A stretch of DNA of 64,000 nucleotides, from contig OX597817.1 in assembly GCA_951406725.2 (NCBI GenBank), positions 73,470,001 through 73,534,000 on the forward strand. The letters are read 5' to 3'. Positions 8,712 through 55,711 of this stretch are shown here, one piece after another. Positions within the stretch are counted from its first letter, which is position 1; every line of letters begins with the position of its first letter. This DNA comes from Octopus vulgaris. Its lineage: Eukaryota. The notes beneath the pieces were generated by a model. It was not told the origin of the DNA. It saw nothing but the letters and a program-made list of their open reading frames with translations, and did not search any database. Made by a program: the position numbers and the translations under genes.

Positions 8712-9674
8712 CGAGGGTTGTATTAAAAGTTTTGAGTCTAACCTAGAAATGGGGCTGCAAGGTAGCTGAAACAATTTTTTCTTTTAAGTACTGTCTTTTG
8801 GAGTATTCTTGCTCATTTTCATGATTCTGATATTTTTATTATTTTTTTTTGTTGCAGATTTTTTAATAAACAAGTGTCAAGATTACAAGAAAAATAGAGA
8901 AAACTGAGAATCGTGCTGTTATGAAGTACCTTCATTTGAAAGGCATGACTCCATCAGAAATCCATGAAGATATGGCGAGAACCTTAACAGACAATGCTCC
9001 TTCATATGCAACAGTCAAACGCTGGGTAATTGAATTCAAGCGTGGCAGGGAGAGTGTTGAAGATGATCCCAGACCAGGGAGACCGCCAACTGCAACCACC
9101 AAGGACAACCTTAACCTTGCTCTTGGTATGATAATGCAAGATCGCTGAATAACATGTCGTCAGATAGCCGAGAAACTGAGCATCTCATTTGAAAGAGCAG
9201 ACAACAATGTAACAAAAGAACTTATGTTCTCAAAGGTTTCCGCAAGGTGGGTCCTTCGCTTTTTGACTCTTGAACAGAAACGTACCTGGTGCACTTTATC
9301 CACGAGCAATCTGGAACTTTTTGAAGTCGATGAAGAGAATTTTCTTGCTCGTTTCATTACTATAGACGAAAGTTGGGTTCATCACTACCAGCCTGAAACC
9401 AAAGAACAACCAAAGCAATGGAAGCACACATCTCCTACCCCAAGGAAGACCAGGGTCATTCCTTCAGCTGGCAAGGTCATGGCATCCGTTTTTTTATATT
9501 CTCGATTACCTTGAAAAAGGTCATACTGTGACAGAGCTGTATTATTCTCAGCTACTGAAACGCCTCCGAGAAAGTGATCAGCTATCGAGGGGGACTATGT
9601 TGAAAAATAAATCATCAGAAGTCTTGTACCACGTTTTTTTTTTTTGAGGCTCAAGACTTTTCATACACCCCTCG
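8712..9674 (+). mobile_element. mariner-like DNA transposon, internally deleted
   Basis: 28-bp TIRs: cgagggttgtattaaaagttttgagtct vs reverse complement of right end cgaggggtgtatgaaaagtcttgagcct (24/28). Flanked by TA at 8710-8711 and 9675-9676. Confidence 0.93.
8894..9610 (+). pseudogene. mariner transposase pseudogene
   Basis: ORFs 8921-9148 and 9224-9514 are in one frame split by TGA at 9146. Motifs: HTH, PRPGRP, WVLRFLT (WVPR-like), FITIDESWVHHY (first catalytic D), KVMASVF, C-terminal GDYVEK-stop. The segment with the second and third catalytic D is missing near 9572. Confidence 0.9.
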
Positions 9675-27429: not shown

Positions 27430-27440
27430 AAATGTGTGAC

Positions 27441-27551
27441 GCTTACAGCATCTAGGTTTCCCAAGTGGTCACCCATCTAAGTACTAACTAGGCTCGACGC
27501 TGCTTAACTTCGGTGATCGGATGAGAACCGGTGCTGTCAACGTGATATGGC
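27441..27551 (-). pseudogene. 5S rRNA pseudogene (lacks the first few nucleotides)
   Basis: Minus strand gccatatcacgttgacagcaccggttctcatccgatcaccgaagttaagcagcgtcgagcctagttagtacttagatgggtgaccacttgggaaacctagatgctgtaagc matches the metazoan 5S pattern including box A and box C. Isolated copy, no oligo-T terminator. Confidence 0.88.
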
Positions 27552-27645
27552 ATATATATATACATACAATATTATGATATTGTATTATAATATTATAGAC
27601 ATTATAGATGCAGTCGTTGGTGTGTGATAAGAAGCTTGCCTCCCA

Positions 27646-29840
27646 CTGCGCATGCGTGTTGTAAGTGTTGTTAGTACCACTGAATAGAAGTCGCTACGCT
27701 GATTTGAAGCTGGTGAAATAGTGATTAAAAAAGCTCAACAGTAAGATAAGACTTATGATTTTTTGGGTCCAGTGGGGGTTTGTTGTTTGCCGTAATTATT
27801 TTTTTTTTACAAACAAGAAGTCCTCACAGGATTCTGGACTCTGGTCTGCCTGCAGATGAGTGAATAGTTTTTCTCACTTAATTGTGAGAATTGTTGTTTG
27901 GCGGTGTATCTCGCTTCCAAAAATTTGTTCACTTTTAGTGAATAGTTTTTTCAGAAATTGTAAGAATTCACCGAAGATACAGCTTCTTTTACCAATTTTT
28001 GTGGAAGCTGTGTTCCAAGTTGTGGCGTTCCGGGCTCAAGTTGGATTAACAAATAGGCTTGGATTACCGAGTGGCCAGAAGATTTTTTGCTTGCTGTATT
28101 TTTTAAACTGGAGACTGCTTTCTTTCCGTCTTCAATCTTTTTTGTGACTGTCTTTTTACTGAACTGTTTTCTTTTTTCTTCTTTTCCTTTTGTTGTGACT
28201 TTCTTTTGATTTCTTTCTTTTTCTTCCTTCTTTTTTCTTTTGAATTTTTATCTGAACTAGTTTTGGACTTTTTATTTAAAAAAAAGACATGGCAAAGAAC
28301 AAGGACAATGTTTTGGAGTGGGAAATTGTCCCACCCAAACAGTGGTTGAAAGACTGTGAAGAGAGGACGGTGGTGTTGAGGACTTACTCAAAGTCGCTCG
28401 ACACCATCACTCTATTTCAAAAGAATGTTATCGAAAGGGAGTTGGCAGAGTATCTGCCAGCTATTAAATTCATCTCCAGCGAGGTCAAATATGCAACGGT
28501 GTGGTTGCTATTTGACGCCCCTGAAGAGGCTCGCAAATTTGCGAGCCAGCCCTTGGAGAACAGAGAGATTTTGTTTCTTCCCACGTATTTTGGGAGGAAG
28601 TTGACGAGGGCTTGGGTCTGTGGTTTGCCACCCGGAATAGAACCCGAGTGGACAGAGGATGCTATCCGCCGGAATCTGGGTGGCAGCGGAGCCAAGCTCC
28701 TCAATGTAAAAATTTTGCCTGCGGCTGATTGGGTGGGGTCAAAAGCGGTTTTGATCCTGTGAACCCAATCAACCAAATATCTGGTATTTCCAGATTTTCT
28801 AAAAATAGCAGGGTGCAGGTACCCGGTGATTCTTGAAGGTCGCCCCGTCAGGTGTCATCAGTGCCTGGAGCCTGGAGCCTGGCCATATAAAGAAAAACTG
28901 TCCCCAGGAACAAAGTAAGGTCTTGGAGCACTTGGTCGAGACCTCTGTAGAAGAGGGAACGAAGGCGGCCGAGGAGGCGGAGGACTCTTCAAAGAATGGC
29001 CGCAAGAGGAAGAAGGTGAGCAACAATGGGTGCTCACCGAAGGATCCTAGGGATGGGGGAGGGGAGGCGAATCTATCGGTCATGGAGGAGATGAACACTC
29101 CCTCAGTTGAGAATAAAAACAAGAGGAAGAGGAAGAGAAACGGGACATTGCCGGCAGTCGGTGACATAGTACCGGAATGTCCTGGAACCTCGTCGGTGGG
29201 TATTGTGACACTGGCAGGAGAAGAGACACCATCGGTGGGAATTGTGCCGACGACGGTAGAAGTGACTACCTCGTCCCCGGAGGAAGACAAATTATGGGTC
29301 TTCTTCTACAGAGGTGGAGAGGTGGAAAGGCGGAGAAGGTGTTGGAAAAGCACCATAAGAGATTATCTTTAGCCTGCACACGGGATGCCGGATGACCTCC
29401 TCAGATAGCTGTGAAGGTCATAACGTTGCCCGTGTTGCGTAGGCTGGAGGGACTCAACGAGGAATATCACTTGCAGCCGGGCGACGGCGACACGGCACCC
29501 ACTTTGTGCCGTGGGTGATGGCGGAGGATGGGGTCACAAGCGATGTGAGGAATATGGAAAACAGGTTGAAAAAGCGTCAGTGTTATTGAAAGTTCCTATT
29601 TTGGAAAATAAGATAAGAGGCTTAGTGCCTCATTTTGTTATTGAATATTGTGAACAATGTAAGAGGTATGTTGCCTCATGAATAATGTAAGATCCATGTT
29701 CTCGGGAAAGAATGATCGGCGGGCGTCGCTTTTCCCCCATTAATGATCATTTTCATTTTTCATTTCATATAAAATTATGTCTGTCCAGTCTGCAGCTTCC
29801 TTTCTCTATGTAAGGCCTTTATGGCCAATATAATAAAATA
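27646..29840 (+). mobile_element. non-autonomous ORF1-only non-LTR element (HAL1-like, L1/Tx1-type) inserted in a SINE head
   Basis: 17-bp TSD aagaagcttgcctccca (27629-27645) / aagaagcttggttccca (29841-29857). About 640-bp 5' UTR, Gag-like ORF, A-rich 3' end; no endonuclease or RT sequence seen. Confidence 0.82.
28289..29372 (+). pseudogene. L1/Tx1-type ORF1 (Gag-like, CCHC zinc knuckle), disrupted
   Basis: Reading through TGA at 28760 gives TQSTKYLVFPDFLKIAGCRYPVILEGRPVRCHQCLEP. Removing one copy of the 7-nt duplication cctggag (28864-28877) restores CHQCLEPGHIKKNC (CX2CX4HX4C, 28853-28901) and joins the 28833-29372 frame, which has basic NLS-like runs. Confidence 0.85.
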
Positions 29841-29963
29841 AAGAAGCTTGGTTCCCAACCACATAGTTCTGGGTTCAGTTCCGCTGCGTAGCCTCTTGGG
29901 CAATGTTTTCTACTGTAGCCTCGGGCCAACCAAAGCCTTGTGAGAAGAAACTGAAAGAAGCCC

Positions 29964-30049
<86 letters not shown>

Positions 30050-30245
30050 TGTGTTTGTTCTCGACCACCGCCTGACAACTGGTGGTGGTTAGTTTACGCC
30101 CCCGTAACCTATTTATTCGACAGGGAGACCGATAGAATAAGTACTAGGCTTAAAGTACTAGATTCGTTCGACTAAAAATTCTTCAAGGCTGTTACCTAAC
30201 AGGGCGTAGTCTGACTGAAACAAGTAAAAGGTAAAAGAAAAGAAA
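29841..30245 (+). mobile_element. SINE family 1, remainder of the interrupted copy (5' part at 27608-27645)
   Basis: Resumes ...cttggttcccaaccacatagttctgggttcag exactly where the head was interrupted. Confidence 0.85.
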
Positions 30246-31812: not shown

Positions 31813-34656
31813 ATTTTATTTTATTTTATTTTATTTAGTTTCAGCTCACAAGCTGTGGCCATGCTGGGGCACCGCCATTTGGTGTTGCTACATGAGAGAG
31901 TTCGATGCAGCTGCCCTCATCCGCACCTCCTGCCGTGAAGTTGGTTCATCTGGGATACCTGACAAGAAGAGATCCAGTTTCATTTTAAAGACATCTGCAT
32001 CAACCCCATGCAGGTCTCTTAGGTTCTTCGGGAGGATATTGAAGAGCTGTGGGCCTCGGAAGCCCAGGCTATCACAGTATCTTGTCCTACATCTTGATGG
32101 CAAATTTGGAGTCCTTGGCACTATGCAGTGGCACCCAGTTCTGGTATTTGTGTAACTCTCGATGCCAAAGTTTGGGACAAGTCCTTCTAGGATCTTCCAG
32201 ATGTATATTATGGCATATCTTTCTCGCCTACGTTCTAAGGAATAGAGTCTCAATCTCTTGAGTCTTTCCCAATAGCTTATATGCTGCACAGAGGCTATCT
32301 TCTTCGTGTAGCTTCGTTGGATCGCCTCAAGTTCTGTGATTAACTTGACACTGGATGGTGACCATAGCTGAGAGCAATAGTCAAAGTGGCTTAGGACAAG
32401 TGTCCTCCAGAGGACCATCATGGTTTCCTGGTCTCTAGTTCTAAAGGTTCTAAGAATCCATCCGGTCAGCCGCCTACATTCCATTGCCGATTTAGCAACA
32501 TGCACATGAAAGGTTGCATCATCACTCATGTAAATACCCAGATCTCGCACTGATTGTGCCTCTGGGATTGCAATCCCTCCAGGTCCAGTGTATTTATTGG
32601 GTATTGCATTTAGTTTTGCATGCTGATAGTATAAAGCTTGACACTTTTCAGCATTGAACTGCATGCTATTCTTTTCAGCCCACTTGTATATTTTGTCCAG
32701 CTCACATTGCAGGTGCTTAGTGTCTTCAGGGTTCTGTATTGCCTGTGAAACTTTTGTATCATCTGCATAACTTGTGATCGTGGCTCTCTGCGTGGCTGAG
32801 GGCATGTCTGAGAGGGCCATTATGAACAGTAGTGGTCCCAGAACAGTGCCTTGCTGGACACCGCTCACTATTTGCGTGTTAATGGAAGTGGCCCCATTAG
32901 CTACTACCACCTGACTTCTATCCTTCAGAAAGTCATGAAGCCATTCCCCCAATGTTCCAACTATGCCAAGATCACGCAGTTTGTGACATATCATTCCATA
33001 ATCGACTTTATCAAAGGTCTTTGCAAAGTCGAGATATATCACTTCCACATTTGTGTGGTTGAGCAGTCGTTTCAGCACCCAGTCATAGTGTTGTAGGAGC
33101 TGAGTTAAGCCAGCTTCTTCCTGGTCGGAAACCATGTTGGGTGTCAGGCAGCAAGTAATTTTCTTCAAGGAAGGTGATTAGTTTCCTTCTGACTATTCGT
33201 TCCATGACCTTGCTGATGTGTGAGGTCAGAGAGATAGGTCTGTAGTTCTTGGCCTCCGCTCTGCTACCTCCTTTATGAATAGGGCATATTTTACCTTCCT
33301 TCGGTTTTCTTGGAAGTTTGCCAGTTGCAAGGAAGCTCTGAAAGAGGAACTGCAGTGGTTTTGCTAGGACTCTCTTACATACTTTTAGAAGGATTGCTGG
33401 GAATCCATCGGGGCCAGTAGCTGAGTTTGTTTTCATTTCATCAATAGCCTTTATTACATCGTCTTCCTTTATATTGATGTAATCAATCATCGCTGCCTCT
33501 GATTTTATATCTGCAGTGGTAAAGAAGTCAGTTGGATTGCTGACTTGAAAATGCCCTGGGGTGGAGTGAAAATACTCTTGAATTGCTCATTTAGTATTTC
33601 ACTTACCCTCATTGGATTTCCTGTGAGTGTGCCATCCTTTTCAAGGAGTGGCCCTATCCTACAGTGCACCGTAGCTGTTTCTTTGGCATACCTGTAGAAA
33701 GCTCTGGGGTTAGATTTTATGTTGTCTATAGCCCAGGCTTCTTTGTCTGCTCTTTCTTTTTCATGGGAGAGTTGCAGACATTTTTCAATTTCCAACAGTT
33801 TTATTTTCAGGCGGGACTTTTCACTGCTTTCAATTTGTTTGTTTAGGCGATTTGAAACTTTTGTACGCCGTCTCATTAGAATTTTCCTCTCTCTGGGGAT
33901 TTTGCTCTAGTGTACAGTGGCCTTTCTCTCTGGGACACATCTGTAGCATATGGCTTGCATTACAGACATGAATTGTTGAAGTTTCATGTCGATGTCTGGC
34001 GAGGATAGACATTCAGGCCAGTTTTGTTTGAGGATCTCTTTCTCAATTTGTTTCCAGTTTGCCTTATGGAAGTTCAAGCTAGAAAGATTCTGAGAGTTTC
34101 TTGTAGGCTGCATGTCCATACTTTCCTTTGGCCCGTACATGGTCAGCTCTACCATGTTGTGATCCGAGAGTAGTGTCGGCGTCACTTTCACATTATGGAT
34201 GAGATCCATATTATTTGTGAAGCAGAGATCCAGTATGTTACCTGCCCTGGTTGGTTGGAGTATTACTTGCTCCATGTACAGAGTGTTGATGAGGTTCAGG
34301 AGGGACCTCGCCTGTCCTCGTTCACATCGTGTCATTCCTGGGAGAGAAAGGCCCTCGGGCCATCTGACATTGGGTAGATTGAAGTCTCCCATAAGAAGTA
34401 CACTTATGTGTTGTTCTAATGTGACTAGAACTTCTATTTTTATAAGGCAGTCTTCAAACTTGCCTACATGACTTGGGGCAACTGGAGGGCGATATGTAGC
34501 ACATATGACTACACCAAGTTGCCTTATATGTACAATTAGTGTGTCACACACCGAATTTGAGTATGACAAAAGGACCTGGGTGTGAGGTCCTCACGGATGT
34601 ACATAGCAACTCCTCCATAACTCCTTTCTTTTCTTTCGGTGACTCCTTTCTTTTCT
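31813..34656 (-). mobile_element. 5'-truncated CR1-group LINE
   Basis: APE and RT coding remnants, a short 3' UTR with stem-loop, and a (TAAAA)n tail at 31813-31837. Truncated inside the endonuclease domain with a short duplication at 34620-34656. Confidence 0.92.
31888..34635 (-). pseudogene. LINE ORF2 (APE endonuclease and reverse transcriptase), broken by stops and frameshifts
   Basis: Endonuclease motifs GGVAMYIR, LLMGDFNLP, ILDLCFT, SDHNMV. RT motifs GPDGFP, NYRPISLTS, QHGFRPGRS, YLDFAKTFDKV, SGVQQGTVLGPLLF, YADD, RDLGI. CR1-type C-terminus DYCSQLWSP...SLERRRERY. Split over four ORFs. Confidence 0.95.
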
Positions 34657-54778: not shown

Positions 54779-55058
54779 GTATGCATACATATATATATAT
54801 ATATATATGTGTATATATACATATATATACATATATGTATATATACATATATATATATATGTGTTTATATATATATATGCATATATACATATATAAACAT
54901 ATATATATTGTGTATATATATATATATATATGAATATATATATATACATGTATTTATATGTATATATATATACGTATATATATATATAGACATGTATTTA
55001 TATGTATATATGTATGTATATGTGTATAAATATATACATGTTTATATATATATATATA
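54600..55058. repeat. degenerate (TA)n tract
   Basis: Visible directly; continues at 55711-55880 beyond the LINE fragment. Confidence 0.95.
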
Positions 55059-55711
55059 CCGGTCCAGAGAACAAGGTGTCATCATGCCACTTTTTTCCTC
55101 CTTTGTACGGCCACACCTTGAATACTGCTGCCCACTGTGGTCTCCTCACACAAGACAAAACATCTCCAGAATTGAGTCACCCCAGAGGGCTCTCACTAAA
55201 CAAATTGAAGGCATGGCTGCTCTCGATTATTGGGATCGCCTTAAAGCCTTGAAACTTTACTCCCTCCAGCGTCGCCGTGAGCGGTACATCATTTGTACGA
55301 TGTGGAAAATATACCGCCAACTTTGCCCAAACGACCTAAACATTAGCTTCAAGGTTCATCCAAGACTTGGACCACGGGCTATACGTCCCCTGCCAAATTC
55401 AAGATCACAACATACATGTACACTGCAACATAATTTCTTTTCCTCAACAGGCCCTGCCCTATTTAACATTGTCCCGAGGGAGATCAAAGAGGAAAAGGAT
55501 CCCATCAACTTCAAACAGAGTCTGGATAGATTCCTTCAAAGAATACCAGATAAGCCACCCATAATTGGATACAACTCACCCAACAAGAACTCACTACTTG
55601 AACAAAACTTGACTTAAACAGGATTCGAATAATCCTATCAGATGGTGTTATTAAGTTAGACATGGCCTGGACCAATCTCTGGTCGAAACATATCTAAGTT
55701 TATCTAAGTTT
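55059..55711 (+). mobile_element. 5'-truncated CR1-group LINE (second family) inside a (TA)n tract
   Basis: Intact C-terminal frame to 55617: [14 protein letters not shown]...[21 protein letters not shown]. 3' UTR catggcctg-gacca-atctc-tggtc-gaaac; tail (tatctaagtt)2. Confidence 0.9.

What the first reader, a model, noticed from the sequence alone, without database searches (positions are those of the whole stretch)
27646..29840. ORF1-only (no RT) L1/Tx1-type retroelement inserted into the tRNA-derived head of a SINE
Seen: a 2195-bp segment splits a family-1 SINE head and is bounded by a 17-bp duplication of that head (15/17 identical; each copy is one change from aagaagcttgcttccca as inferred from other copies). 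It has a long 5' UTR, one ORF repairable by undoing a single stop and a 7-nt duplication (giving ...FPDFLKIAGCRYPVILEGRPVRCHQCLEPGHIKKNCP), under 500 bp of 3' sequence and an A-rich end. No endonuclease or RT is present. Established: ORF1-only HAL1 elements exist, and many Tx1-clade LINEs are target-specific for small-RNA genes or repeats. Inference: a non-autonomous family that supplies its own RNA-binding protein, borrows ORF2 in trans, and may target tRNA-derived SINE heads.
Basis: partly seen in the sequence, partly recalled or inferred. Interest (0 to 1): 0.8.

Follow-up and report, generated by a model that had tools for sequence, protein, structure and literature searches.

The report
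Half-length octopus retroelement inside a SINE
A decayed 2.2-kb jumping gene, probably from an octopus, carries only an RNA-binding protein and no copying enzyme and sits inside a short repeat; it resembles known 'half-LINE' parasites, but one copy cannot show that it is a family or that it aims at such repeats.

Summary
The anatomy is confirmed. A 2195-bp segment splits a SINE head between 17-nt direct repeats (15/17 identical). It has a 643-bp leader, one ORF broken by a stop and a 7-nt duplication, 468 bp of 3' sequence and an A-rich end. An Octopus sinensis protein (77% identical) reads through both breaks. Its model is two RRM domains followed by one CCHC knuckle, a type I LINE ORF1. No endonuclease or RT remnant was found. 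A third related piece lies on another O. sinensis contig, so the ORF1 lineage is dispersed.

Two claims stay untested because no other copy's DNA could be read: that ORF2 is missing family-wide, and that the element targets SINE heads. The site fits a generic L1-type A-rich cut. Tx1 membership cannot be shown without RT, and the tRNA origin of the SINE head rests on box-like motifs only.

Best reading (0.5): a dead copy of an ORF1-only non-autonomous LINE family moved in trans by octopus L1-Tx1 elements. Main rival (0.3): a one-off internal deletion. ORF1-only LINEs are known (HAL1, HeT-A, Ag-Sponge, TRE5-A.2). Targeting has about 0.12 probability.

The parts
27443..27558 (-). 5S rRNA copy, probably a pseudogene (first model positions are matched by an AT run); lies head-to-head with the split SINE and the element
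   Evidence: Rfam RF00001, 89 bits against a gathering score of 38; only hit at gathering level in the window
27610..27645 (+). 5' part of the host SINE head (A-box-like side), ending in the left copy of the duplication
27629..27645 (+). left copy of the 17-nt target-site duplication
   Evidence: 15/17 identical to the right copy
27646..28288 (+). 5' UTR, 643 bp; begins with a palindromic GC motif at 27647-27656, has a short internal repeat (27859-27892 / 27937-27968) and a T-rich tract before the ATG
28289..29372 (+). broken type I ORF1: RRM1, RRM2, one CCHC knuckle, then a low-complexity acidic/basic region; stop at 28760-28762 and 7-nt duplication at 28863-28882
29373..29826 (+). 3' region without a detectable ORF2 remnant; GC stays at 50-63% to about 29545, then drops
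29827..29840 (+). A-rich tail (10 A of 14) containing AATAAA
29841..29857 (+). right copy of the target-site duplication
29858..30241 (+). rest of the host SINE (B-box-like motif, body, microsatellite, LINE-like tail)

Best explanation
This is a dead, apparently full-length copy of an ORF1-only, non-autonomous LINE of an octopus. A master copy was transcribed from its own 5' UTR (inferred) and made an RRM-RRM-CCHC ORF1 protein (fold shown for the O. sinensis relative) that coated its RNA (inferred from known ORF1 function). It borrowed endonuclease and RT from an autonomous L1/Tx1-type LINE (inferred; such LINEs exist in O. vulgaris). Target-primed reverse transcription put it into an existing SINE, leaving a 17-nt duplication and an A-rich tail (shown). 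The site was chosen by a generic preference for a T followed by a purine run on the top strand, not by SINE-specific recognition (inferred). The copy then decayed neutrally by very roughly 6%.
For: Duplication, tail and in-register SINE halves. Tandem RRM fold at pLDDT mostly above 85 over residues 11-200; all Foldseek rows shown are RRM proteins, best E 3.6e-05; La RRM at Z 8.9, rmsd 2.7, 82 aligned. ESM feature neighbours are eukaryotic CCHC clusters (0.92) and a ZCCHC3-RBD cluster (0.90, 168 of 256 shared). No EN or RT trace after the ORF. Related ORF1 pieces lie at two O. sinensis loci on different contigs, each damaged differently, as dead copies of a mobile family would be. The copy keeps a long 5' UTR and loses ORF2 with no remnant; from general knowledge most LINE copies are 5'-truncated, so a short unit explains this better than one rare clean deletion (inference). 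O. vulgaris holds 80 L1-Tx1 families, 13 recently active (PMC13282606). The top strand at the site reads T then AAGAAG, close to the recalled L1 TT/AAAA preference. ORF1-only LINEs are documented (PMC5786205; PMC5391098).
Against: No second copy was read at DNA level, so a shared ORF1-to-3'UTR junction is not shown. The 44 of 195 differences from P0002 are no more conservative than neutral simulations (63-90 of 500 reach the observed score), so no selection on ORF1 is shown in this lineage. Type I ORF1 does not fix the clade. The 3' region stays GC-rich for about 170 bp past the stop, so the true ORF end, or a decayed ORF2 scrap, is unresolved. No partner tail was found in the window (local score 15 against the CR1-like tail, versus 34 for the SINE tail).
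Confidence: 0.5

Rival explanations
1. A single copy of an autonomous L1-Tx1 LINE (about 5.4 kb) that lost ORF2 once, by a template jump during insertion or by a later deletion. No ORF1-only family exists.
For: Recently active L1-Tx1 insertions in O. vulgaris average about 5.4 kb (2,288,644 bp over 421 insertions, my arithmetic). All protein evidence fits equally. Only one copy was seen at DNA level.
Against: No ORF2 remnant at either side of the supposed deletion. It needs a full-length copy and a clean loss of about 3 kb together.
Confidence: 0.3
2. An ORF1-only family that is targeted, either by a partner Tx1 endonuclease specific for this SINE-head sequence, or by ORF1 contact with Pol III factors as in TRE5-A.
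For: SINE heads cover about 0.9% of the window and the whole SINE family about 6.9%. The window's only 5S copy lies 88 bp upstream. Many Tx1 elements prefer repeats or small-RNA genes (PMC4494074). TRE5-A.2 is ORF1-only and Pol III-targeted (PMC3159450, PMC5391098).
Against: One event, noticed after the fact. SINEs are 11.6% of the O. vulgaris genome, so nested insertions are common. The site fits a generic A-rich cut. TRE5-A lands 35-42 bp upstream of 5S genes and outside the gene, whereas this copy is 88 bp away and inside a SINE head.
Confidence: 0.12
3. A processed retrocopy of a domesticated, ORF1-derived host gene (of the ZCCHC3 or L1TD1 kind), with LOC115225585 as the parent or its orthologue.
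For: UTR-ORF-UTR-tail-duplication anatomy is also that of a retrocopy. P0002 is intact and carries three RefSeq accessions.
Against: No orthologue-level protein was found in other octopus proteomes (1 hit among 118 candidates; single-member cluster). P0002 has lost the first knuckle Cys that the window keeps, and it ends at 281 aa against 358 codons, so it looks like another decayed copy.
Confidence: 0.05
4. The 17-nt repeat is not a target duplication. The left piece is the element's own SINE-derived 5' cap, and the right piece is a separate 5'-truncated SINE that landed in the A-rich tail.
For: The 10 nt at 27641-27650, across the left junction, match exactly a segment just past the SINE B-box-like motif. 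Several SINE copies in the window are 5'-truncated.
Against: One event explains both halves in register with a typical duplication length. Only 5 of the 10 matching bases come from the element, and they also belong to a palindromic motif.
Confidence: 0.03

Closest known systems
HAL1 (half-L1) of mammals (PMC5753468, PMC5786205: passages)
   Same: ORF1 without ORF2, A-rich end, target duplication; would need ORF2 in trans
   Different: HAL1 derives from mammalian L1 with the Transposase_22 ORF1; this ORF1 is tandem RRM plus one CCHC, in a mollusc; family status here is unproven
HeT-A (Jockey clade) and Ag-Sponge (CR1 clade) (PMC5786205: passages)
   Same: ORF1-present non-autonomous LINEs
   Different: Other clades and hosts; that paper names only Jockey, L1 and CR1 as sources of ORF1-present derivatives, not Tx1
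TRE5-A.2 of Dictyostelium (PMC3159450, PMC5391098: passages)
   Same: ORF1-only, moved in trans, found next to Pol III genes including 5S
   Different: TRE5-A lands at a fixed short distance upstream of the gene; this copy is inside a SINE head and 88 bp from a 5S copy; TRE5-A ORF1 is reported as dissimilar to other LINE ORF1s
Target-specific Tx1 elements: Tx1, Keno, Kibi, Koshi, Tx1-Mar (PMC4494074: passages)
   Same: Type I ORF1 is consistent with Tx1 (PMC5203782); insertion into a repeat with a duplication of similar length
   Different: Those elements encode EN-RT, and their targeting was shown over many copies; neither holds here
O. sinensis LOC115225585 (XP_029652367) and the octopod RRM-RRM-CCHC protein radiation
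   Same: 77% identity over 196 aa; sister to the window's protein with 100/100 support
   Different: Annotated as uncharacterized; the pair sits on a long stem (1.64 changes per column) and lacks the N-terminal extension of most relatives

Membership tests
Non-LTR retrotransposon insertion (TPRT product) | Target-site duplication and A-rich or simple-repeat 3' end, no terminal repeats | tested here: met
   17-nt repeat 15/17; tail 10 A of 14; no terminal repeat in the self-comparison
Type I LINE ORF1 | At least one RRM followed by a CCHC knuckle | tested here: met
   Model of the 77% identical P0002 and fold searches; zf-CCHC E 0.06 here, below the Pfam cut-off, and in 16 of 46 aligned relatives at E up to 0.5
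ORF1-only non-autonomous LINE family (HAL1-like) | ORF1 present, ORF2 absent in the copy | tested here: met
   468 bp after the stop; 0 of 9 read-through translations hit an EN or RT family; no usable atlas hit for the longest 3' ORF
ORF1-only non-autonomous LINE family (HAL1-like) | Several independent insertions share the same ORF2-less structure | not tested
   No genome held; no second copy obtained as DNA
ORF1-only non-autonomous LINE family (HAL1-like) | Purifying selection on ORF1 among ORF2-less masters | tested here: inconclusive
   Protein-only proxy: differences from P0002 are not more conservative than neutral; no DNA for dN/dS
Mammalian HAL1 proper | Type II ORF1 (Transposase_22) from mammalian L1 | tested here: not met
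   No such Pfam hit for the window's ORF or P0002; tandem RRM plus CCHC architecture
Tx1 clade | RT phylogeny groups with Tx1 | not testable with these tools
   The element has no RT, and no linked ORF2 was recovered
Target-specific Tx1 elements | One target type in more than 20% of flanks (criterion of PMC4494074) | not tested
   Only one insertion available
TRE5-A-like Pol III targeting | Insertion 35-42 bp upstream of a 5S gene or about 50 bp upstream of a tRNA gene | tested here: not met
   88 bp from the Rfam 5' end of the 5S copy and inside a SINE head
tRNA-derived SINE (host repeat) | Head homologous to a tRNA with A and B boxes | tested here: inconclusive
   Box-like motifs in the consensus by eye; no tRNA hit by ARAGORN or Rfam
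SINE (host repeat) | 3' tail shared with a LINE | tested here: met
   About 45 nt match the tail of the EN-RT LINE at 31835-34590

The most novel reading that the evidence does not exclude
A Tx1-derived, ORF1-only family of octopuses that homes to the Pol III promoter head of the genome's commonest SINE (or to Pol III-occupied sites): a parasite of an autonomous LINE that uses another LINE's parasite as its landing site and disables that SINE by separating its A and B boxes.
Probability: 0.12. Interest if true: 0.65.

Novelty: new member of a known kind. Interest (0 to 1): 0.33.

Why it matters
If the family is real, it adds a mollusc example, possibly from the Tx1 clade, to the short list of ORF1-only LINEs. 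It would also reclassify a set of 'uncharacterized' octopus proteins as LINE ORF1 products. If targeting were shown, it would give a natural case of a retroelement that uses SINE heads as a safe haven and inactivates them. As a single decayed copy it is ordinary nested repeat DNA.

Tried and rejected
Own-genome search: no genome held. Scans for related DNA: P0002 in metagenome, viral and prokaryote contigs and P0052 in metagenome contigs confirmed 0 of 595, 146, 601 and 201 pattern matches; these collections are not expected to hold octopus DNA. Sequencing runs: 13 of 24 listed runs hold part of the element (7 studies, 4 organism codes, best share 0.32); no RNA holder listed. None was laid on the element, so these shares do not separate orthologous from paralogous copies, and the junction and flank questions stay open. 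Longer or fused forms: 0 of 1831 candidates of 493-2000 aa (weak evidence). The profile search returned only 2 of 7999 scored candidates (crowded). My own idea that ORF1 runs on past 29372 into the C-terminal domain of several relatives: best frameshift-aware score -0.1 bits, reached by 16 of 60 shuffles, while leave-one-out controls scored 14-27 bits for 5 of 6 relatives; not supported. A 3' stem-loop: z -1.07, 27 of 200 shuffles as good; not supported. PDB sequence search: best E 0.73. No LINE ORF1 chain appeared among the fold-search rows shown, which excludes nothing. Logan contigs bearing distant relatives are 1703-1930 nt in 4 clusters; this fits a short element but also contig breaks at a shared ORF2, so it is not used. 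Earlier findings: three look-ups returned nothing. Literature: searches listed no paper that, by title or abstract, describes an ORF1-only octopus element. Repbase, Dfam and the Zenodo library of PMC13282606 could not be seen and may already hold it. Bao and Jurka 2010 was not held.

Full report
Observation. The segment 27646-29840 is bounded by a 17-nt direct repeat at 27629-27645 and 29841-29857 with two mismatches, the best repeat across the junction ranges scanned. Aligned with eight other SINE copies from the window, the left flank supplies the first part of the head and the right flank continues it in register through body, microsatellite and tail. Each repeat copy is one change from the majority sequence. 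The host SINE differs from the in-window majority at 12 of 120 scored sites. Inside are a 643-bp leader, an ORF from 28289 with a stop at codon 158 and a 7-nt tandem unit at 28863-28882 (358 codons once the extra bases are discounted), 468 bp of 3' sequence, and a tail with 10 A in 14 nt. The tRNA origin of the head was not confirmed by ARAGORN or Rfam; A- and B-box-like motifs are visible by eye, and the insertion falls between them.

The protein. One close relative was found among 118 candidates: O. sinensis XP_029652367 (P0002, 281 aa, 77% identical over 196 aa). It has Trp at the window's stop and runs across the frameshift, which confirms both breaks. A profile-free search of 1.84 billion representatives gave 47 hits. 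I looked up 22 of the 47; 13 carry an organism name and all 13 are octopods. The window is therefore most likely from an octopus (inference). The AlphaFold model of P0002 (mean pLDDT 81.3, 46 sequences) has two compact domains. All Foldseek rows shown are RRM proteins; VIA-align gives La RRM at Z 8.9, rmsd 2.7 over 82 residues, a middling score by the tool's own note. A CCHC knuckle follows, below the Pfam cut-off here (E 0.06) and matched in 16 of 46 aligned members at E up to 0.5. ESM features point to eukaryotic CCHC clusters and a ZCCHC3-RBD cluster. This is a type I LINE ORF1, which PMC5203782 (passages) calls consistent with Tx1 in non-mammalian animals but also reports across CR1 and L2 elements; it does not fix the clade.

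The lineage. In a tree of 23 rows (P0016 and most short fragments left out), the window and P0002 group at 100/100 on a stem of 1.64 changes per column. Both start 26 residues before a reference column, where 24 of 27 other rows have more. P0016, on another O. sinensis contig, holds a 45-residue piece that matches the window at 36 of 45 and P0002 at 29 of 45. The three loci are damaged in different ways: the window has a stop and a frameshift, P0002 has lost the first knuckle Cys and ends early, and P0016 is a fragment fused in a gene model to an integrase. That fits scattered dead copies. The 44 differences in 195 core residues between the window and P0002 are no more conservative than neutral mutation (63, 90 and 70 of 500 simulations reach the observed score), and they correspond to about 12% DNA divergence. 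Ten need two base changes, more than simulated (0-4 of 500), and they cluster, which suggests local indels or different masters. At the rate quoted in PMC13282606 (0.0036 per site per million years), 6% per copy is roughly 17 million years; this is a rough figure.

No ORF2. Nine read-through translations over 28900-29840 hit no EN or RT family, while the same library readily found EN and RT in a neighbouring LINE. The longest 3' ORF gave no usable atlas hit. GC stays ORF-like to about 29545. I tested whether ORF1 continues into the C-terminal domain seen in several relatives and found no support (16 of 60 shuffles as good; controls positive for 5 of 6). The element's 3' end does not match the neighbouring LINE's tail, whereas the SINE's tail does (scores 15 and 34), so the two use different machinery (inference).

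What could not be tested. No genome is held and no second copy was obtained as DNA. Thirteen of 24 listed runs hold part of the element, but none was laid on it. A shared junction and the flanks of other copies therefore remain unknown.

Mechanism. Shown: a TPRT-type insertion with a type I ORF1 and no ORF2. Inferred: an ORF1-only master whose RNA was copied by the ORF2 of an autonomous LINE. O. vulgaris has 80 L1-Tx1 families covering 56 Mb, 13 of them recently active (PMC13282606, main text parts 1-2 of 3 and a supplement search). I favour a family (0.62 with and without targeting) over a one-off deletion (0.3) because the copy keeps its long leader and shows no ORF2 scrap; this is a plausibility argument, not a test.

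Targeting. SINE heads cover about 0.9% of the window and the SINE family 6.9%; SINEs are 11.6% of the O. vulgaris genome. One nested insertion noticed after the fact is weak evidence. The top strand reads T then AAGAAG, near the L1 TT/AAAA preference (recalled). In favour, Tx1 elements often prefer repeats or small-RNA genes (PMC4494074, passages), and the window's only 5S copy lies 88 bp upstream. TRE5-A.2 is ORF1-only and Pol III-guided, but lands 35-42 bp upstream of 5S genes (PMC3159450, PMC5391098, passages), which this copy does not match.

Known systems and novelty. ORF1-present non-autonomous LINEs are known from the Jockey (HeT-A), L1 (HAL1) and CR1 (Ag-Sponge) clades (PMC5786205, PMC5753468, passages). 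The element works like these. It is not a mammalian HAL1, and Tx1 membership is untestable without RT. Searches listed no description of such an octopus element; passages of PMC9115989 concern RTE elements and passages of PMC4758252 cite three tRNA-derived octopus retroposons. Repeat libraries were not visible and may hold it. Verdict: a real, well-described copy, a new member of a known kind; interest 0.33.

Noticed in passing
window 31835-34590 (-): 5'-truncated LINE with EN and RT (Pfam Exo_endo_phos_2, RVT_1), CR1/L2-like by my reading; its last 45 nt or so match the tail of the main SINE family, so it is the likely partner LINE of that SINE.
   Followed up: partly
window 27443-27558 (-): Only 5S rRNA copy in the window (89 bits). 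Its 3' end is followed within about 12 nt by a full SINE head at 27433 (-): either a 5S-SINE chimera or two adjacent insertions.
   Followed up: partly
window 27641-27656 (+): The left junction reads as an exact 10-nt match to a segment past the SINE B-box-like motif. The element starts with a palindromic GC motif found twice in the window against 0.02 expected; it resembles an NRF1 site (label recalled).
   Followed up: partly
window 28528-28547: Perfect 20-nt palindrome inside ORF1; the residues differ in P0002, so probably chance.
   Followed up: no
window 55030-55617 (+): Open frame resembling, by eye, the C-terminal part of the neighbouring LINE's ORF2; no Pfam hit.
   Followed up: no
window 9149-9514 (+): Mariner-type transposase fragment (Transposase_1, E 0.0019, below cut-off).
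   Followed up: no
proteins P0003-P0048: A broad set of octopod RRM-RRM-CCHC proteins under 50% identical to each other, mostly annotated as uncharacterized; at least five share a small C-terminal domain (leave-one-out 14-27 bits) that no Pfam family covered.
   Followed up: partly
PMC13282606 Table 1: The recently active 'SINE' classes 5S and tRNA-Deu average 5-6 kb per insertion (my arithmetic), too long for SINEs; they may be LINEs joined to small-RNA-derived targets.
   Followed up: no
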